From Escherichia coli (GTDB lineage: Bacteria; Pseudomonadota; Gammaproteobacteria; Enterobacterales; Enterobacteriaceae): a DNA stretch of 64,000 bases. The notes below the pieces were generated by a model. It did not search any database, was not told where the DNA came from, and saw nothing but the letters and a program-made list of their open reading frames with translations. Position numbers and translations under genes: made by a program. The DNA lies in assembly GCF_044324875.1 (NCBI RefSeq), contig NZ_CP172186.1; one strand, 5' to 3'. Positions 1,164 to 7,669 of the stretch are shown in pieces (within the stretch, counting starts at the first letter, position 1; the number at the start of each line of letters is the position of its first letter).

Positions 1164-1193
1164 GTAAGCGACTCGTCAGAACCGTATTGATAT

Positions 1194-2765
1194 TTACTGA
1201 GAGCTCAGATCAACTTTCCAGGGCAACAGATCGCGTACCCGGTTTGCCGGCCAGTCCTGGATATGTTCAATGACGTAACGCAGCCACTTTTCTGGCTCCA
1301 CATTGTTCAGACGGCATGTGCCGATCAGCGAGTACAACACCGCCGCATGTTCACCACCGCTGTCGGAACCCGCGAACATCCAGTTTTTCCGGCCTACGGC
1401 CACTCCCCGTAAGGCGTTCTCTGCGATGTTGTTGTCGATTTCCACCCAGCCATTACTGCAGTACACGTTCAGTGCATCCCACTGTTTCAGCAGGTATGCG
1501 AACGCTTTTGCCGTATCTGAGTGACGCGACAGTGTTTTCATCTGTTGCTGTATCCAGTCATACAGTGACTGCATCAGTGGCGCGGCTCTGGCTTTTCTTG
1601 CCGCCAGACGCTGTTCTGCTGAACAGCCCCGGACCTCTGCCTCGATGGCATACAGTTCACCGATACGCTGCAGGGCTTCCGTGGTGATGTAGGTGGGCGC
1701 TCTTGCATGCACATCGTGGATTTTTCTCCGGGCATGAGCCATACACGCGGCTTCCGTTATTCTGCCGGATTCGTATAACGCCCGGTAACCACCGTAAGCA
1801 TCGGCCTGAAGCACACCGCTGTAACCGGCCAGGTGATTTTGTGGATGGATACCTTTCCGGTCCGGACTGTACGCGAACCAGACCGCCGGGGGCATCTGTG
1901 AACCGGCGTTACGGTCATCACGGACGTAGACCCACAGCCGGGCTGTCCGGGTTTTACCGCTGCCCGGCTCCTGGACCGGGACGGGGATATCATCAGCATG
2001 GACTTTACCGGGCATCAGCACATACTGGCGCAGGACGTCATACAGCGGCTCCAGCAGTTCAGCAACAGCACCTGTCCAGCGCCCCAGTGTGGCACGGCTC
2101 AGCTCCACTCCCTGACGACGGTATATTTCTGACTGGCGGTATAACGGCAGATGGTCTGCATATTTCCCGGTGACAACATGGGCCAGAAGCCCCGCTCCGG
2201 CATAACTGCGTGCAATGGGTTTTGAAGGTACTGGTGCCTGCACGATATGGTCGCACCGGCAACAGGCCTGTTTCGGACGTTGTGTTTCGATAACCTTAAA
2301 GGCGCTGCTGATAAGCTCCAGTTGCTCTGACACATCACATCCCAGAGAACTGAGTTCACCACCACAGGCAGGACAGCATTCCTCTTCCGGCCGGATAACC
2401 CGGGTTTCACGGGGAAGTGAGGCCGGTAACGGTTTACGGGCTGAAGACTGGCGCAGGGCGGATGGCAGTACCGGGTCATATTGCTCACCCAGCGTTTCCG
2501 CCATTTCTTCCTGAAGTGCGCTGATTCGCTCCTGTGCTTCCTGTATCTGCCGTTCGGTTTTTGCACGAAGTTTTTCTGAGCTTTTACCGAACTGCATACG
2601 TTGCAGTTTCGCAACCAGCGCCTTCAGCCGGTTGATTTCGGAAGCATAAGCCGCCACCCGCTGTGAGAGCAGGCGGTTGTATTCAGCCATCTGGCGGATG
2701 GTGTCCTGTTGCGTCTGCAACAGTGCCCGCAGGCGGGCGTTCTCATGAGCAAGTGAGGTGTCCAT
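1194..2765 (-). CDS. tnpC: IS66-family transposase TnpC
   Basis: 523 aa, N-terminal coiled-coil/leucine zipper, CxxC zinc motifs, C-terminal DDE region. Confidence 0.9.
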
Positions 2766-2784
2766 ATCCTCACTTTACAACGGG

Positions 2785-3132
2785 TTATATGCGGATTCCA
2801 GCGCGTTCCGTTCGTTTCGGGTGCTTCCAGTTGATACCTTCAAGAAGCATGGATAACTGAGCCGGAGTAAGGTGCACCTTGCCGTCACGGGTGACTGGCC
2901 AGACGAAGCGGCCCCGCTCCAGGCGTTTGGTGAAGAGGCACAGTCCGTCACTGTCAGCCCACAACACTTTTATCTGGTCACCCCGGCGTCCGCGGAAGAT
3001 GAACAGGTGTCCGGAGAACGGGTCATCCTTCAGGACGTTCTGAACTTTTGATGCCAGGCCGTTAAAGCCATTTCGCATATCGGTGATACCTGCAACCAGC
3101 CAGATACGCGAACCTGCAGGGAGAGATATCAT
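2785..3132 (-). CDS. tnpB: IS66-family Orf2 (TnpB)
   Basis: 115 aa, typical IS66 Orf2 size, start/stop coupled to neighbours. Confidence 0.9.
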   Translation of the reverse strand: MISLPAGSRIWLVAGITDMRNGFNGLASKVQNVLKDDPFSGHLFIFRGRRGDQIKVLWADSDGLCLFTKRLERGRFVWPVTRDGKVHLTPAQLSMLLEGINWKHPKRTERAGIRI

Positions 3133-3809
3133 CAGTGGCTGCTCCCTTTTATTTCGCGGATAAGTGTCTGTAATAACGCCGGCGTCAGTTTACCTTTAAG
3201 CCTGAGAGTTCCGGCCGGCAGAACCAGCTCACAACACAGACTGTCGGACGGTGTATTTATCTGCTCTGGTTCCTGTGCGGGGGCCGGGATTTTATTATCC
3301 GGCTCCGGCGTTAACGTCACGGGAAGCAGTGCCGGCATATTTTTTCCGGAAGGCAGCAGGCCACCTTTCCGGTATTGATGGCGCCAGTTGAAGAGCAGGT
3401 TATCGTTGATTCCGTTTTCCCGGGCGATCTGCGCCACACAGGCTCCGGGCTGCAGTGACTGCTCCACTAAGGCGATTTTAAACTCATAAGGGAAGTTGGG
3501 CCGCCGGGGACGTTTTTTTACCACGGGGGCTTCGGATATAACGGTGCTTTCAGGACGTACGACTGGTACCGTGGAAAATTGTCCGTAAAGGCAGGCATCA
3601 AGTTCCTGCTCCGACATGCCTGCGGGCAAAGGCCACGAAAGGCCAGCTCTCCGAAAGCGCACGAACATACTACAAACTGTTGATTTTGGTACACCCAGGC
3701 GACGCCCGGCCACAACCCGGGGTAAATGTTCTTCAAAGTGAAGACGTAAAGCTTCAGTGATCCAGGTCCGGTGTTTCATACGATAGTGTCCATTAAAAAT
3801 GATGGACAT
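3132..3809 (-). CDS. IS66-family accessory protein Orf1 (TnpA-like) with N-terminal HTH
   Basis: C-terminal half resembles IS66 Orf1 (PRRPNFPYEFKIALVEQ...); N-terminal part has HTH and an LSWPLPA motif also seen in IS21-type IstA. Confidence 0.6.
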   Translation of the reverse strand: MSIIFNGHYRMKHRTWITEALRLHFEEHLPRVVAGRRLGVPKSTVCSMFVRFRRAGLSWPLPAGMSEQELDACLYGQFSTVPVVRPESTVISEAPVVKKRPRRPNFPYEFKIALVEQSLQPGACVAQIARENGINDNLLFNWRHQYRKGGLLPSGKNMPALLPVTLTPEPDNKIPAPAQEPEQINTPSDSLCCELVLPAGTLRLKGKLTPALLQTLIREIKGSSH

Positions 3810-4085
3810 TATTTTTGTAGAGCCGGAGGAAACAGACCAGACGGTTTAAATGAGCCGGTTACTTCCCGACAGACGACTCGGTGAAAAAAGTGGTGTGGCT
3901 GGCAATCCAGTCTGCGTCCCGGAAATGGACGATGCCGTTGAAGGACTGGCGAATGGCAATGAGCCGCTTTATTATCGAGTTCGGTGACCGCCTGGACGGT
4001 CACTTCTGAGAAAGGCATTTACACAGAATCTTAAACAGGCTCAAGTGAAGCTAAGCACACAATCAATTCAGGTCTTTGACATCCT

Positions 4086-4152
4086 CCATCTTAACTTCCA
4101 AAGGGTACTCCCGCCGACATAAGGCGGGAGTACCCTTTGGAAGTTAAGATGG
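4086..4152. repeat. Perfect 30-bp inverted repeat with 7-nt loop (hairpin; candidate bidirectional terminator or protein-binding site)
   Basis: CCATCTTAACTTCCAAAGGGTACTCCCGCC-gacataa-GGCGGGAGTACCCTTTGGAAGTTAAGATGG read directly. Confidence 0.9.
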
Positions 4153-4296
4153 AAAACCGACATAAGAACCCTCTGTTATCCTGAAACTCTTATATTTATA
4201 TAACTTGTGAAGGCGTTATGCACACAACCAATCTTCGCAAAGTCGGCGTCTCGTTGACATCCTCCACGCCCTGACGAATGTGGAGGAATGTCAATA

Positions 4297-6570
4297 TTAA
4301 TGTCCGGGCCACTCCTGTTGTTCAGTGACGTGATGTGATATTTCTTCTTTAGCTGTAGCCTCATTCTGGAGGTTTGAAGTAAATATACGCTCCATTGTTT
4401 GTGCAACCGATGGTGGCATTTTTTCTTCCACACGTTCCTCTTCCGGACAACTCTGTGTGATATAGCATACGTGCCGTTCTTCCCGGGATGTGGTATTGAT
4501 GATGTGAACTGCCTTGTTCCACAGGCTGTTTCCCCGGGCAGAGATATCTGTATCATATTGCGGAAGCAGATCCAGCGATGTTTGTGTTTCGTTAAGCTGC
4601 TTCTGGAAGGTATCGATGATACGGTAAGGCTCTGTACGGTTTTTACGACGTTTACGGGATGGTTTTGCTGTCAGTACACCAATAATGCTGCTGACATGCT
4701 CCGGTGTGGGAAAACGGCGCTGCACTGTCCTGGGGACGAGACGGCGGAGACGCTCCAGGCGGGGGGCTTCAACGGAAATATAGCGGTTGATGACCACCGG
4801 ATCACTGTCGCAACTTTTCTCGCTGTCCGGAATATACACAGAGGCTGACGGCACCACATCCCCCTGGAAAACGGTAAAGAACTCACCGGCATTCAGTCTG
4901 ATCAAATCCTGCACGTCGATTTTGCTTTCCATCTGGATGGTGATCTGGTTACCGTCCACCCAGGACTCACCCATCACACCATCGTGGCGCTGCAGGCTGC
5001 CCATTCTGGCCCGAGCCTCTTCACCGGCGGCATTTTTCACCGTTCTTGCCGTTTTGTCGTCACTGACAATGCGTCCGGCGAATTTGGTGCCGGCGTTCTG
5101 CATCAGTGTGGCGGTGTTGGTGGCGGAGGTCTGCCCTTCAATTCGCTCCTGATCCTGCGCCATCATTATCAGGGAAAACTCCAGTGAACGTACCTGGGTG
5201 GCCTCCACAGCAATGCGGTCTGTGTAGTAGGCACCGACTTCGTCAAGGATACAGATATAGGGGAAGCGGCCTTTGTATTTTTTTACTTCCAGGGTCTGTG
5301 CGTCTGTGCCTTCCAGGCGGTAGCCCAGGTCACGGGCGAGGATCATGCTCTGCTGGGTGATGAACATACGACCGAGTGCCGACGTGGTATGGGCTGATGT
5401 GTCCAGTGCGGGGATCATCACAATCAGAATTCGGTCGCTGTGGATACTGTCGCGAATATCGATGTCGCCGGCATCTGCCGCAAAGACGTCCCCGAAGGTT
5501 TCGGCAAAGGTTGTGAATGTTTCCGAGAACTGACCGGAGAGATAAGCATGCTGTTTACGGGGCTCCTCAGTCCAGGCTGACGGCGTTCTCACCAGTGACA
5601 TATCGAATCCCGGAACGTCCTGCAGGTAATTTCTCAGTGGTGCGATGGCTTCTTCCGGCCACTGGTCATCAAGCCCACGGCAATAGAGTTTTGCCATACC
5701 TTCCAGCGTCATATGCTCCCGTAACATCTGCAGGGACATGGTTTTTCTTTCCCGGACGCACCAGAATTTTGTGCCAAAGACCAGGGCTTTGTTCATGGCT
5801 ATCGCCCGTGACTGCCATTCACCCCCCTGAACGTTCTGGGGAAGCATGGACTGCATGGTTTCGGCGGTGAAGGCTTCGGTGCTGAATGCGAACGGGTTCC
5901 AGGTGTTTGACTGTGGGCGGGATTTTTCGCCGCTCTGAATGATTTCACTGCGGGATTTTCCGCCGTTCATGAAGTTGATGACCTCGATATCATCCTCCCG
6001 GCCAAAACGTCGGGAGAGATACCAGATTGTCCTCGTGGTATCGTTCTGTGCCTTTCCGTCAACAAAGGTAAAGCCTCTTCCCCAGCAGAGAGGGTTGAGC
6101 AGCCAGGCAAAGGTGGTTTCTGTTTTACCGCCACCGGTGGTGGAAAAAAATATGATATGCCGGGTGAGGTCATCCATGCTCAGCCAGAGCTCACGACCGA
6201 TATCGTTGATACGGCGGTAACCGACATAAAAAATCCCCCGTGCGGGGGATGTTTCATCTGCTTCATACTGAAACAGGGTGGGCCAGAAGCTGAAGAGGCT
6301 TCGCCTGACCTTTCTGTCCTGGGAGGGGTCATCAAGGCTGAGCGTCATGGGCATACGCAGGGGGCATCGCCAGCGTTGCAGCGTGAATATCACGGAGGTG
6401 ACCAGGGTGAACAGCAGACAGACAGGAAGGGCCAGTGGCCATATCAGGGCCGTAATGATACTGCCGGCCAGACACAGACCAATGATGTTCAGGTTGTGCA
6501 GTGCATTCCACAGCGGGTTTCCCCAGGCCGTGCGGTGTATGAGGTCAGGATTAACGTGATGCTGGCTCAT
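4297..6570 (-). CDS. trbC: Type IV coupling protein, TrbC/DotL(IcmO)-like
   Basis: 757 aa, N-terminal TM helices, Walker A STTGGGKTET; last gene of a trbA-trbB-trbC unit as in IncI1. Confidence 0.75.
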   Translation of the reverse strand: MSQHHVNPDLIHRTAWGNPLWNALHNLNIIGLCLAGSIITALIWPLALPVCLLFTLVTSVIFTLQRWRCPLRMPMTLSLDDPSQDRKVRRSLFSFWPTLFQYEADETSPARGIFYVGYRRINDIGRELWLSMDDLTRHIIFFSTTGGGKTETTFAWLLNPLCWGRGFTFVDGKAQNDTTRTIWYLSRRFGREDDIEVINFMNGGKSRSEIIQSGEKSRPQSNTWNPFAFSTEAFTAETMQSMLPQNVQGGEWQSRAIAMNKALVFGTKFWCVRERKTMSLQMLREHMTLEGMAKLYCRGLDDQWPEEAIAPLRNYLQDVPGFDMSLVRTPSAWTEEPRKQHAYLSGQFSETFTTFAETFGDVFAADAGDIDIRDSIHSDRILIVMIPALDTSAHTTSALGRMFITQQSMILARDLGYRLEGTDAQTLEVKKYKGRFPYICILDEVGAYYTDRIAVEATQVRSLEFSLIMMAQDQERIEGQTSATNTATLMQNAGTKFAGRIVSDDKTARTVKNAAGEEARARMGSLQRHDGVMGESWVDGNQITIQMESKIDVQDLIRLNAGEFFTVFQGDVVPSASVYIPDSEKSCDSDPVVINRYISVEAPRLERLRRLVPRTVQRRFPTPEHVSSIIGVLTAKPSRKRRKNRTEPYRIIDTFQKQLNETQTSLDLLPQYDTDISARGNSLWNKAVHIINTTSREERHVCYITQSCPEEERVEEKMPPSVAQTMERIFTSNLQNEATAKEEISHHVTEQQEWPGH

Positions 6571-7669
6571 TGTGATTATCCTCGGTATCTGTGGCTTTCA
6601 GGAACAGGCTGACGGTAGTGGCGTCTTTCAGGATGCCGGACGGCAGGTGCCAGCCGGTATCGGATAACACCCATGGGGTACCGCCAAAACCGAACTGGCG
6701 GAAAGCCTGGTTATTGACATCGATGGCAGCACGAGCAGCGGTCAGACACTTTTCATCCGGTGCAGCCGGTGCATCGCCGGTGGGTGCCATACCACCGTCT
6801 GCGGAATACAGCTGATGCCATCCGGTCGCCCGTTTTTGTGCGTCCGGTTCACACAGCAGTGGCGCAGTCCGGTTTGTGCTGGCCTCTCCGCCGATTACGG
6901 AGACCGGATAAATCACCACGCTGAATTCCCGGGCCAGTTGCTTAAGCGCGGGCTCCAGAAGACGGCAGTTGATGCATGCGGGGTCAAGGAAGGCGTAGAG
7001 TGTGCGTTCATGACCAGTGGAGAGATTAATGGTGAACATACCCCGGTCCGCGTTGCGTTTAAGTACAGTGGCCAGATTACGGCGGGCTTCAGCGACCAGA
7101 GTATTTTTGTCTGCTGTTATCGCCGGGGTAGCGGATGTCTCCTGCATTTCCTGTGATGCCGGGTGAACGATTTCATTTTTCGTCTCTGACGGGGCTACTG
7201 ACCGGACAATTTCCTTGTCGATGTGTAATGGTGCTGTTTCTGTTACGGATTCTGTGACAGGTACCCTGAGAGGGGAATCGCTGTCCGGTTTCAGTAAAAT
7301 ATATCCGGCTGTTACCGCTGTCAGAAGTGCCAGCACTAATCCTGCACCGTATATCAGCCCTCTCATGAAGCTGGTTTTCCGGGCAGGAAGTTCTGCATAT
7401 GCCGCGCTCAGACAGCTGTCAATCGCGGAGAGCATTCTGCCGATGTGATGTCCGGGACGTTCAGTATCAACGGTATCAACAAGCAGTGTTTCGGTTATTT
7501 CACGAAAAGGGGTGCTGAAGGACAGGTGCATCAGCCTGTTATTACGGTTAATCAGTGCGCCCAGTTCTGTAACCGGCAGGATGGCAATAACCTCCTGACC
7601 ACCGTCAGGGTACAGGGCGGTCAGGGACAGGTGTTTATTGTTCAGTGTTGCAGTGTAGCGGATGGTCAT
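6551..7669 (-). CDS. trbB: TrbB, DsbC-like thiol:disulfide interchange protein
   Basis: 372 aa, TM/signal anchor, thioredoxin-type CINC (CxxC) motif; coupled between trbA and trbC. Confidence 0.65.
   Translation of the reverse strand: MTIRYTATLNNKHLSLTALYPDGGQEVIAILPVTELGALINRNNRLMHLSFSTPFREITETLLVDTVDTERPGHHIGRMLSAIDSCLSAAYAELPARKTSFMRGLIYGAGLVLALLTAVTAGYILLKPDSDSPLRVPVTESVTETAPLHIDKEIVRSVAPSETKNEIVHPASQEMQETSATPAITADKNTLVAEARRNLATVLKRNADRGMFTINLSTGHERTLYAFLDPACINCRLLEPALKQLAREFSVVIYPVSVIGGEASTNRTAPLLCEPDAQKRATGWHQLYSADGGMAPTGDAPAAPDEKCLTAARAAIDVNNQAFRQFGFGGTPWVLSDTGWHLPSGILKDATTVSLFLKATDTEDNHNEPASR

What the first reader, a model, noticed from the sequence alone, without database searches (positions are those of the whole stretch)
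4077..4294. Perfect 30-bp palindrome and a second hairpin share a TTGACATCCTCCA motif downstream of trbC
The 30-bp arms at 4086-4115 and 4123-4152 are perfectly complementary with a 7-nt loop, which is unusual for a simple terminator. A second imperfect hairpin at 4254-4294 directly follows the trbC stop. The motif TTGACATCCTCCA precedes both. Neither hairpin is followed by a clear U-tract. This could be a bidirectional terminator between convergent operons, a protein-binding site, or a recombination hotspot.
Basis: seen in the sequence. Interest (0 to 1): 0.45.

Follow-up and report, generated by a model that had tools for sequence, protein, structure and literature searches.

The report
Mirror-image IS200/IS605 left-end scar
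The perfect palindrome downstream of trbC is the left end of an IS200/IS605-type insertion sequence joined head-to-head to its own mirror image, a transposon footprint that replaced 200 bp of older transposon debris, and it is not a terminator or a plasmid control element.

Summary
A perfect inverted repeat has 31-nt arms at 4085-4115 and 4123-4153 around a 7-nt loop. A second imperfect hairpin lies at 4254-4294. TTGACATCCTCC occurs at 4076 and 4254.

The palindrome is nt 1-41 of an IS200/IS605-family element (Y1 TnpA plus TnpB; found in IncI2 plasmids and phage If1), followed by the reverse complement of nt 1-18. An empty-versus-filled site comparison shows this IS inserts exactly 3' of CCAT. 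The 59-bp core is flanked by CCAT on the top strand and CCAT on the bottom strand.

The same structure occurs in four unrelated flanking contexts. Where ancestral sequences exist, it replaced 200 bp or 166 bp, or it joins DNA from two replicons. CCAT is native on each of the six junction sides with an ancestral sequence.

TTGACATCCTCC is the inverted right-end (RE) tip of the same IS family. The copy at 4076 belongs to an old tnpB-3'/RE relic. Hairpin 2 is a second relic RE.

There is no U-tract, no Rfam family, no tnpA or tnpB in the window and no relation to the nearby IS66 element. How the mirror LE formed is inferred, not shown. I rate it a new variant of a known kind, of modest interest.

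The parts
4086..4089 (+). CCAT, the target/left cleavage tetranucleotide of the IS on the top strand. It is native backbone sequence and part of the relic A right end.
   Evidence: The empty site L009 reads ...CTCTCCCCAT|ATATGAC and the filled site L004 reads ...CCCCAT[CTTAAC...GATGTCAA]ATATGAC. CCAT precedes the IS at four independent insertions. CCAT is present in the ancestor-like L002.
4090..4130 (+). IS left end (LE), nt 1-41. It comprises an 18-nt tip (CTTAACTTCCAAAGGGTA, whose last four nt GGTA are the presumed guide), the stem CTCCCGCC, the loop GACATAA and the stem GGCGGGAG.
   Evidence: It is 41/41 identical to nt 1-41 of the 1818-bp IS of L004. The natural LE folds into this hairpin. 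The geometry resembles IS608 (PMC3201880, PMC5934647).
4131..4148 (-). Mirror copy of LE nt 1-18, that is, a second LE tip read on the bottom strand. It shares the central hairpin with the first.
   Evidence: Window 4123-4148 is 26/26 identical to the reverse complement of IS nt 1-26.
4149..4152 (-). ATGG, which is CCAT on the bottom strand: a second native target tetranucleotide abutting the mirrored LE.
   Evidence: It is present at the same place in L002 and L005, which lack the palindrome.
4076..4089 (-). Tip of relic A, the inverted right end (RE) of an old IS200/IS605-family element (...ATGGAGGATGTCAA| on the minus strand). The rest of the relic was replaced by the palindrome.
   Evidence: 12/12 identity to the reverse complement of IS nt 1807-1818. 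In L002 the same motif continues into 200 bp containing a collinear tnpB-3' remnant, 47 nt at 94% to IS nt 1690-1736 and 16 aa of the TnpB C-terminus.
4254..4294 (-). Hairpin 2, or relic B: a second degenerate RE-type terminal hairpin plus tip. It reads ...GTGGAGGATGTCAA on the minus strand and ...GTGGAGGAATGTCAA on the plus strand, and it abuts the trbC stop codon.
   Evidence: 12/12 identity to the IS RE tip. A 34-nt stretch is 82% identical to relic A of L002. Fold. It is invariant in all 13 plasmids that carry this trbC 3' end.
4297..6570 (-). trbC, given for context. The element lies downstream of its stop codon.
   Evidence: ORF list; annotation of the identical region in p135-2.
1164..3862 (-). 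IS66-family (ISCro1-like) element, given for context only. It is not part of the palindrome.

Best explanation
The palindrome is a head-to-head pair of left ends (LE) of one IS200/IS605-family insertion sequence. That IS is 1818 bp and carries a Y1 transposase TnpA and the RNA-guided nuclease TnpB. The two LE tips share the single LE hairpin that TnpA binds. Shown: window 4090-4130 is LE nt 1-41 and 4131-4148 is the mirror of LE nt 1-18. The IS inserts exactly 3' of CCAT without duplication, and the 59-bp core is bounded by CCAT on the top strand and CCAT on the bottom strand. Both tetranucleotides are native to the ancestral backbone, and the 200 bp that lay between them are gone. That lost DNA was an older tnpB-3'/RE relic of a related IS. 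Inferred: each side is a genuine TnpA-type target-LE junction, on opposite strands, and the two LEs were then fused at the hairpin. Because the 8-bp stem (CTCCCGCC/GGCGGGAG) is itself palindromic, it is present as a direct repeat in two inverted LEs. Slipped mispairing, annealing or template switching between those repeats removes both IS bodies and everything between them. This leaves exactly the observed 59 bp. The precursor could have been two inverted IS copies, which form an unstable long palindrome. It could also have been a fold-back of one LE whose mirrored copy was then joined by TnpA to a second CCAT. The motif TTGACATCCTCCA is the inverted right-end tip (...GGAGGATGTCAA|) of the same IS family. 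The copy at 4076 is what remains of relic A, and hairpin 2 is relic B. Today the palindrome is most likely a neutral scar with no dedicated plasmid function. Each strand still carries what looks like a complete LE substrate (CCAT, 14 nt, guide GGTA, hairpin) for a TnpA supplied in trans.
For: Identity: 41/41 and 26/26 matches to the IS end, and 12/12 matches of both TTGACATCCTCC copies to the RE tip. The IS encodes Y1_Tnp (1e-38) and OrfB_IS605 plus a Cas12f1-like TNB domain. IS ends and target: the empty site L009 against the filled site L004 gives unambiguous ends, CTTAAC...GATGTCAA, inserted 3' of CCAT. Four independent full-IS insertions all follow CCAT, and the base before CCAT varies (C, G, T, C). 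IS608-like anatomy: 18 nt separate the cleavage site from the LE hairpin foot, and 10 nt run from the RE hairpin foot to TCAA|. The four nt 5' of the RE hairpin are GAAT and the RE cleavage site is TCAA, the same as in IS608. The four nt 5' of the LE hairpin are GGTA, Watson-Crick complementary to CCAT under the IS608 pairing scheme (sequence; rules from PMC3201880 and PMC5934647). Derived state: pRM10042-1 (L002) has CCAT-200 bp-ATGG where the window has CCAT-59 bp-ATGG. Recurrence: the same palindrome is in SSU5-like phage-plasmids (L003), where relatives (L007) have CCAT-166 bp-ATGG inside a 74-aa CDS. It is also in two K. pneumoniae plasmids (L010, L011) at junctions of unrelated DNA. For L011 the left-flank source L016 reads ...CCAT| and the right-flank source L017 reads |ATGG.... 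The K. pneumoniae copies carry a symmetric T>C / A>G change in both arms, as expected if a variant LE was mirrored. All six junction sides with a known ancestor show a native CCAT. In all four contexts the palindrome stops at CCAT/ATGG, with one extra pair by chance in the window. No tnpA or tnpB is present in the 64-kb window.
Against: No intermediate was found, neither a full IS at either CCAT of these contexts nor an inverted IS pair, so the route of formation is inferred. An inverted double insertion within 166-200 bp in two separate lineages is a priori unlikely. The two-replicon junction in L011 is awkward for a simple collapse of a nearby inverted pair. IS608-type elements insert preferentially into the lagging-strand template (PMC5027513), which argues against opposite-strand insertions close together. 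No mirrored RE of the active IS was seen among 677 plasmid records that carry the RE, so mirroring is not a general property of both ends. A 10-nt identity (CCGACATAAG at 4114 and 4157) between the LE hairpin and the native right flank is unexplained. TnpA binding and cleavage of the palindrome is predicted, not tested.
Confidence: 0.8

Rival explanations
1. The 59/67-bp palindrome is itself a small non-autonomous mobile element (PATE-, MITE- or REPIN-like). A TnpA supplied in trans would move it between plasmids.
For: It occurs at 96-100% identity in four unrelated flanking contexts, always bounded by the IS target CCAT. Diverged look-alikes exist in two Photorhabdus genomes. Both strands carry a complete LE-type substrate.
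Against: It has no RE. No TCAA-type cleavage site lies at the RE distance 3' of the hairpin, and the guide is GGTA, not GAAT. IS608 needs both ends (PMC3201880). Where ancestors are known it is not a simple insertion: 200 bp or 166 bp of target DNA are missing, or two replicons are fused, and the right-hand ATGG is native to the target. Only one copy was detected in each of the records examined, and it is rare: 18 of 72,556 plasmid records, 15 of 5,426 E. coli genomes, 2 of about 100,000 species genomes, and none in the metagenome or viral contig scans.
Confidence: 0.08
2. The palindrome arose from a single IS copy. Snap-back or template switching at the LE hairpin during replication or repair copied the LE tip backwards. 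A microhomology-mediated switch back to downstream DNA followed, with no second TnpA junction.
For: The product (natural LE through the hairpin, then its mirror) is what self-primed fold-back synthesis gives. Deletion of downstream DNA and junction microhomology (ATGG, ATGGA) fit template-switch models. It needs only one insertion.
Against: Fold-back synthesis has no reason to stop at the IS boundary. In four of four contexts the mirror ends exactly after the 4-nt target, and the microhomology is always the IS target CCAT rather than flank-specific sequence.
Confidence: 0.2
3. The palindrome and hairpin 2 are selected RNA or DNA structures. They would act as a bidirectional terminator, insulator or mRNA 3'-end stabiliser between the convergent trbABC and nikB/pemIK operons.
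For: Both lie between convergent transcription units. The stems are very stable. From general knowledge, the LE hairpin of IS200 acts as a transcription terminator. Hairpin 2 is invariant in all 13 plasmids with this trbC end.
Against: No U-tract follows on either strand and the scan finds no terminator. There is no Rfam family; only a sub-threshold miRNA-hairpin match. The palindrome is missing from the nearest backbones, which keep trbC. The same palindrome lies inside a disrupted CDS and at replicon-fusion junctions elsewhere. The 13 plasmids are at least 99.5% identical, so the invariance carries no information.
Confidence: 0.08

Closest known systems
Left end (LE) of IS200/IS605-family insertion sequences, IS608 paradigm (TnpA Y1/HUH 'peel and paste' single-strand transposition)
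   Same: It has a subterminal hairpin 18 nt from the end. The target/cleavage tetranucleotide lies immediately 5' of the end and is not duplicated. A 4-nt guide sits 5' of the hairpin foot and is complementary to the target (GGTA/CCAT here, AAAG/TTAC in IS608). The parent IS has the IS608 RE signature GAAT...hairpin...TCAA|. The parent encodes Y1 TnpA and TnpB.
   Different: Here two LE tips are joined head-to-head around one hairpin, and there is no RE, tnpA or tnpB. The natural LE hairpin has an 8-bp stem plus a 6-bp outer helix across a 5x5 internal loop. In the palindrome it has become a perfect 31-bp stem. It is a derivative, not an IS.
The tnpA-tnpB element of IncI2 plasmids and phage If1 (labelled IS683 or 'IS200 element' in IncI2 mcr-1 papers, e.g. 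PMC5996929; I could not verify which ISfinder name applies)
   Same: It is 100% identical over LE nt 1-41, and its 12-nt RE tip equals the TTGACATCCTCC motif (reverse complement).
   Different: The window holds only 59 bp of it, mirrored, and no complete copy exists within the 64 kb.
PATEs / MITE-like non-autonomous IS200/IS605 derivatives
   Same: It is short, palindromic and derived from the ends of an IS200/IS605-family element.
   Different: PATEs keep both LE and RE, are multicopy and insert simply. This structure has LE only, was seen as one copy in each record examined, and sits at deletion or fusion junctions.
REP/REPIN elements mobilised by RAYT (TnpA-REP) Y1 transposases
   Same: It is an inverted doublet of a Y1-transposase recognition hairpin, with a conserved tetranucleotide at the 5' side on each strand.
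   Different: No RAYT gene was seen, no more than one copy was seen in any record examined, and there is no evidence of spread as a unit. It is on plasmids in the four enterobacterial contexts. The sequence is that of an IS LE, not a REP.
Palindrome-stimulated deletion between short direct repeats in E. coli (slipped mispairing or single-strand annealing; SbcCD-processed long palindromes), from general knowledge
   Same: The proposed collapse of two inverted IS copies uses the 8-bp direct repeats provided by the LE stem and leaves a short, tolerated palindrome.
   Different: It was not demonstrated here, and no precursor with long inverted repeats was found.

Membership tests
IS200/IS605-family LE (TnpA substrate) | Sequence identity or homology to the left end of a bona fide family member that encodes a Y1 transposase | tested here: met
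   41/41 identity to nt 1-41 of the IS in L004. That IS encodes Y1_Tnp PF01797 (1.1e-38) and a TnpB with OrfB_IS605, TNB and HTH domains.
IS200/IS605-family LE (TnpA substrate) | Insertion 3' of a specific tetranucleotide, with no target duplication and no terminal inverted repeats | tested here: met
   Empty site L009 against filled site L004. CCAT precedes the IS at four independent insertions and lies on both sides of the palindrome in four contexts.
IS200/IS605-family LE (TnpA substrate) | A subterminal hairpin about 19 nt from the cleavage site, with a 4-nt guide 5' of its foot that pairs with the cleavage site | tested here: met
   18 nt run to the foot; the hairpin folds. GGTA is complementary to CCAT under the IS608 scheme (A+16:T-3, A+17:T-4; PMC5934647). 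The pairing is read from the sequence and is not biochemically tested.
IS200/IS605-family LE (TnpA substrate) | Binding and cleavage by the cognate TnpA | not testable with these tools
   This needs purified TnpA and the 67-nt oligonucleotides.
Complete IS200/IS605 element or PATE/MITE derivative | Both LE and RE present on the same strand (RE hairpin, GAAT guide, TCAA| about 10 nt 3' of the foot) | tested here: not met
   Only LE sequence lies within 4090-4148. The adjacent TCAA tip of relic A is 32 nt from the hairpin foot on the opposite-loop strand, and the guide is GGTA, not GAAT.
Complete IS200/IS605 element or PATE/MITE derivative | Simple insertion at the target, and multiple copies | tested here: not met
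   200 bp and 166 bp of target DNA were replaced, or two replicons were joined. Only one copy was detected in each record examined, and occurrence is rare.
Intrinsic (rho-independent) terminator | GC-rich stem-loop followed by a U/T tract | tested here: not met
   No terminator-like site in 3800-4500 on either strand. The tails are AAAACCG on the plus strand and AGGATGT on the minus strand.
IS66-family terminal inverted repeat | GTAAGCG-type terminal inverted repeats at the element ends, contiguous with tnpA-tnpB-tnpC | tested here: not met
   The IS66-family element spans about 1164-3862, with ends GTAAGCGACTCG... and ...GAGCCGGTTAC. The palindrome lies about 220 bp outside and is unrelated. 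In pTB-nb2 the IS66 sits at another position.
REP/REPIN | Many chromosomal copies per genome, associated with a RAYT gene | tested here: not met
   15 of 5,426 E. coli genomes carry the full palindrome, and all 15 copies are on plasmid records in one of two contexts.
Known structured RNA (Rfam) | A match at or above the gathering score | tested here: not met
   Only mir-5984 at 52 bits against a gathering score of 95, a generic perfect-hairpin match.

The most novel reading that the evidence does not exclude
Mirror-LE palindromes flanked by the target tetranucleotide on both strands could be the footprint of a so far undescribed reaction of IS200/IS605 elements. In that reaction two LE-target junctions on opposite strands would be made by TnpA and fused at the LE hairpin. 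The outcome would be precise deletion of the intervening DNA, or fusion of two replicons, with a 59-bp scar left behind. Such scars would be REPIN-like doublets at their moment of birth.
Probability: 0.2. Interest if true: 0.6.

Novelty: new variant of a known kind. Interest (0 to 1): 0.35.

Why it matters
For this plasmid it removes a candidate regulatory element. The region between trbC and the neighbouring genes is layered debris of IS200/IS605-type elements, not a conserved terminator or binding site. More generally, the same 59-bp mirror LE occurs at four unrelated deletion or fusion junctions, each bounded by the IS's own target tetranucleotide on both strands. This suggests that single-strand 'peel and paste' transposons, usually described as leaving no trace, can leave a recognisable footprint and take part in deletions and replicon fusions on resistance and virulence plasmids. 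Such footprints could be searched for systematically. They could also be a route by which REPIN-like hairpin doublets originate.

Tried and rejected
- **IS66 end.** Rejected: the IS66-family element ends about 220 bp away with unrelated terminal repeats.
- **Intrinsic terminator.** No U-tract, and the scan is negative.
- **Known RNA family.** The window, L002 and L004 gave only sub-threshold hits. No IS605-orfB or omega-RNA-type family was reported for the relics.
- **Conserved IncI-complex feature.** Rejected: only 13 plasmid records share even the trbC 3' end and hairpin 2 at blastn sensitivity, all at 99.5% identity or more. No covariation test was therefore possible.
- **Mobile mini-element.** Disfavoured by the missing RE, the replaced target DNA and the rarity.
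- **Mirrored RE of the active IS, as an analogue of hairpin 2.** Searched with a synthetic query. All of the listed top-ranked hits among 677 records start at the natural RE, and none is mirrored.
- **More copies in public collections.** The exact-core pattern found nothing in metagenome or viral contigs and only two Photorhabdus loci in species genomes.
- **Name of the IS.** Papers use IS683 or 'IS200 element' for IncI2 insertions. I could not establish which name applies. An IS609 search was uninformative.
- **Literature on LE-LE junctions of IS608-type elements.** Nothing found.
- **Intermediates.** No full IS at either CCAT site appeared in the hit lists for the IncK2/Z or SSU5-like lineages.

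Full report
**Observation.** The reported structures are present.
- The repeat finder gives a perfect inverted repeat with 31-nt arms at 4085-4115 and 4123-4153 around the loop GACATAA.
- The 69-mer folds at -38.5 kcal/mol as DNA, z = -15 against dinucleotide shuffles. The 251-nt region has z = -9.3 on the minus strand and -11 on the plus strand as RNA.
- Hairpin 2 (4254-4294) is an imperfect hairpin with one bulge, -11.5 kcal/mol, z = -6.8. It ends 2 nt before the stop codon of the 757-aa ORF at 4297..6570 on the minus strand. That ORF is annotated trbC in identical plasmids.
- TTGACATCCTCC occurs at 4076 and 4254 and nowhere else in the 64 kb.
- No terminator-like or promoter-like site is detected in 3800-4500.

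**What the palindrome is made of.** Megablast of 4020-4300 against PLSDB found the whole region in only ten plasmid records at 80% coverage or more. About 150 other plasmids matched only window 4086-4130, which is the left arm, the loop and the first 8 nt of the right arm.
- In the IncI2 plasmid pMRSN346638_64.5 (L004) this 45-nt stretch lies at the edge of an element annotated IS200/IS605 tnpA plus tnpB.
- Pfam confirms Y1_Tnp (1.1e-38) and OrfB_IS605, a Cas12f1-like TNB domain and an HTH domain.
- The same element sits in the major intergenic region of the IncI-pilus-specific filamentous phage If1.
- I built an empty-site query from the two L004 flanks. It matched many IncI2 plasmids as one ungapped piece.
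- The empty site L009 reads ...CTCTCCCCAT|ATATGACTC. The filled site L004 reads ...CCCCAT[CTTAAC...GGAGGATGTCAA]ATATGACTC. The ends are therefore unambiguous: an 1818-bp IS inserted exactly 3' of CCAT with no duplication.
- Four independent full insertions (L004, If1, L012, L013) all follow CCAT, and the base before CCAT varies (C, G, T, C).
- BLAST of the IS against the window gives 4090-4130 = IS nt 1-41 (41/41) and 4123-4148 = the reverse complement of IS nt 1-26 (26/26).
- The palindrome is therefore CCAT + [LE nt 1-41 + mirror of LE nt 1-18] + ATGG.

**Fit to the IS608 paradigm.** In IS608 the left cleavage site TTAC lies 19 nt 5' of the foot of the LE hairpin. TCAA lies 10 nt 3' of the RE hairpin foot. 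Each is recognised by a 4-nt guide immediately 5' of the hairpin foot: AAAG for the LE and GAAT for the RE (PMC3201880; PMC5934647).
- In the present IS, 18 nt separate CCAT| from the hairpin CTCCCGCC-GACATAA-GGCGGGAG.
- The RE reads GAAT-CCCCC(T/A)CC-loop-GGTGGGGG-AGGATGTCAA|. It has the same guide (GAAT), the same cleavage site (TCAA) and the same 10-nt spacing as IS608.
- The four nt 5' of the LE hairpin are GGTA. Under the IS608 pairing scheme they are Watson-Crick complementary to CCAT at all four positions.
- This identifies the hairpin as the TnpA-binding hairpin and CCAT as the cleavage and target site. That identification is an inference from sequence and published rules, not a biochemical result.
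- In the palindrome, each strand carries CCAT, 14 nt, GGTA and the hairpin, which is a complete LE module.

**The motif and hairpin 2.** TTGACATCCTCC is the reverse complement of the last 12 nt of the IS...GGAGGATGTCAA|.
- In the related IncI-gamma/K1 plasmid pRM10042-1 (L002) the copy corresponding to 4076 continues into 200 bp.
- Those 200 bp contain, in collinear position, 47 nt that are 94% identical to IS nt 1690-1736 and a 16-aa remnant of the TnpB C-terminus.
- This is an old, inverted tnpB-3'/RE relic (relic A) lying after the pemK-like toxin gene.
- Hairpin 2 is 82% identical over 34 nt to the terminal hairpin and tip of relic A, so it is a second degenerate RE module (relic B).
- The motif precedes both hairpins because both sit at relic right ends. 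It is not part of the palindrome's own logic.
- The CCAT used at 4086-4089 happens to lie within relic A's RE stem.

**The palindrome is derived and recurrent.** Only 13 plasmid records (IncK2/Z and IncI-gamma/K1) share this trbC 3' end.
- L002 has CCAT-200 bp-ATGG where the window has CCAT-59 bp-ATGG.
- pA16EC0070-1 (L005) also keeps the right part of the 200 bp.

The same palindrome was found in three other contexts.

| Context | Locus | What relatives or flank sources show |
|---|---|---|
| SSU5-like IncFIB phage-plasmids | L003 | About 80 relatives (e.g. L007) have CCAT-166 bp-ATGG inside a 74-aa CDS |
| K. pneumoniae F-type plasmid | L010 | Left flank is IS2-type sequence; no source was found for the right flank |
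| K. pneumoniae plasmid | L011 | Left flank comes from a ColRNAI plasmid gene (L016: ...cctttcgCCAT\|ATCCC); right flank comes from IncFII DNA (L017: ...GAGGAA\|ATGGaaaaatg) |

- All six junction sides for which an ancestral sequence exists carry a native CCAT on the appropriate strand.
- In all four contexts the palindrome ends at CCAT/ATGG, with one extra pair by chance in the window.
- The K. pneumoniae copies carry a symmetric T>C / A>G substitution in the two arms.
- In 5,426 complete E. coli genomes the full palindrome occurs in 15, all in the two E. coli contexts.
- An exact-core pattern found nothing in the metagenome or viral contig collections. It found two Photorhabdus loci among species genomes.
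- One Photorhabdus locus is a solo LE variant with a perfect 19-bp stem next to a truncated NRPS ORF. The other is a diverged LE-LE palindrome.

**How it most likely arose (inferred).** Both junctions look like TnpA-made target-LE junctions, on opposite strands.
- The 8-bp LE stem is itself palindromic, so two inverted LEs contain GGCGGGAG (and CTCCCGCC) as direct repeats.
- Deletion, annealing or template switching between these repeats removes everything between them. This leaves exactly LE(1-41) plus the mirror of LE(1-18).
- One possible precursor is two inverted IS copies. This is a 1.8-kb-arm palindrome, a class known from general knowledge to be unstable in E. coli and prone to deletion between flanking short repeats.
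- The other possible precursor is a fold-back of one LE whose mirrored copy, itself a valid LE on the other strand, was joined by TnpA to a second CCAT.
- Pure template switching from a single copy explains the mirror. It does not explain why it stops at the 4-nt target in four of four cases.
- No intermediate was found.
- The lagging-strand bias of IS608-type insertion (PMC5027513) and the two-replicon junction of L011 are difficulties for the simple inverted-pair route.

**What it does now.** There is no evidence for a selected function.
- The palindrome is absent from the nearest backbones.
- It lies inside a disrupted gene elsewhere.
- It has no U-tract and matches no RNA family.
- There is no tnpA or tnpB in the window.
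- It may still be nicked 3' of CCAT on either strand if a cognate TnpA is present in the cell. That is a prediction, not a result.

**Comparison and verdict.**
- It works like, and is derived from, an IS200/IS605 left end.
- It is not a complete IS, a PATE or MITE (no RE, not a simple insertion), a REP/REPIN, an IS66 end or an intrinsic terminator.
- I found no description of LE-LE mirror junctions for this family in the searchable literature. That library is incomplete.
- I rate it a new variant of a known kind, with modest interest (0.35).
- The more novel reading is that this is the footprint of a TnpA-dependent two-strand reaction that causes deletions and replicon fusions. That reading remains possible, at about 0.2.

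Noticed in passing
window 1164-3862: An IS66-family (ISCro1-like) element with three ORFs on the minus strand. In p135-2 (L001 3142-5843) the same element lies in the opposite orientation next to the same right-hand flank, with an extra 978 bp (astA region) on its left. In pTB-nb2 (L006) a copy is inserted at the position equivalent to window 4169/4170, between the palindrome and hairpin 2.
   Followed up: partly
window 4114-4123 and 4157-4166: The 10-nt string CCGACATAAG occurs once in the LE stem/loop and once in the native right flank, 4 nt beyond ATGG. The flank copy is also present in L002 and L005, which lack the palindrome. This may be chance, or a microhomology that played a part in the event.
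   Followed up: no
window 4052-4067 and 4217-4232: A 16-nt repeat (TAAGCACACAATCAAT / TATGCACACAACCAAT) lies upstream of each TTGACATCCTCC motif. In L002 the first copy is the very end of the pemK-like toxin gene. This suggests an old duplication of a 'toxin 3' end plus relic RE' module.
   Followed up: partly
L008 (phage If1, NC_001954 about 5311-7130): The filamentous phage If1 carries a complete copy of the IS (tnpA plus tnpB, the latter annotated ORF348) in its major intergenic region, inserted after ...GGAGTTGCCAT. A single-strand transposon resides in a single-stranded-DNA phage that uses IncI pili.
   Followed up: partly
L014 about 1483-1560 and L015 about 1897-1973 (Photorhabdus cinerea and P. 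asymbiotica): P. cinerea has a solo LE variant whose hairpin is a perfect 19-bp stem, followed by the IS's second small hairpin. It sits where an NRPS condensation-domain ORF is cut off. P. asymbiotica has a diverged LE-LE palindrome flanked by CCAT and ATGC.
   Followed up: partly
L010 1201-1267 and L011 1201-1267 (K. pneumoniae plasmids): The palindrome carries a symmetric change (CTTAACCTCC...GGAGGTTAAG) and sits at junctions between unrelated DNA segments: IS2-type sequence on the left in L010, and a ColRNAI plasmid gene joined to IncFII DNA in L011.
   Followed up: yes
PLSDB-wide: The RE terminal 45 nt of this IS family occurs in 677 plasmid records, but the LE in only about 170. Many tnpB-3'/RE fragments exist without tnpA. 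RE/tnpB relics such as relic A are therefore common plasmid debris.
   Followed up: no
window 4297-4420 (trbC 3' end): The last 120 nt or so of trbC, together with hairpin 2, match only 13 plasmid records even in blastn 'distant' mode. The C-terminal end of TrbC in this IncK2/Z and IncI-gamma/K1 lineage is therefore unlike that of other IncI-complex plasmids.
   Followed up: no
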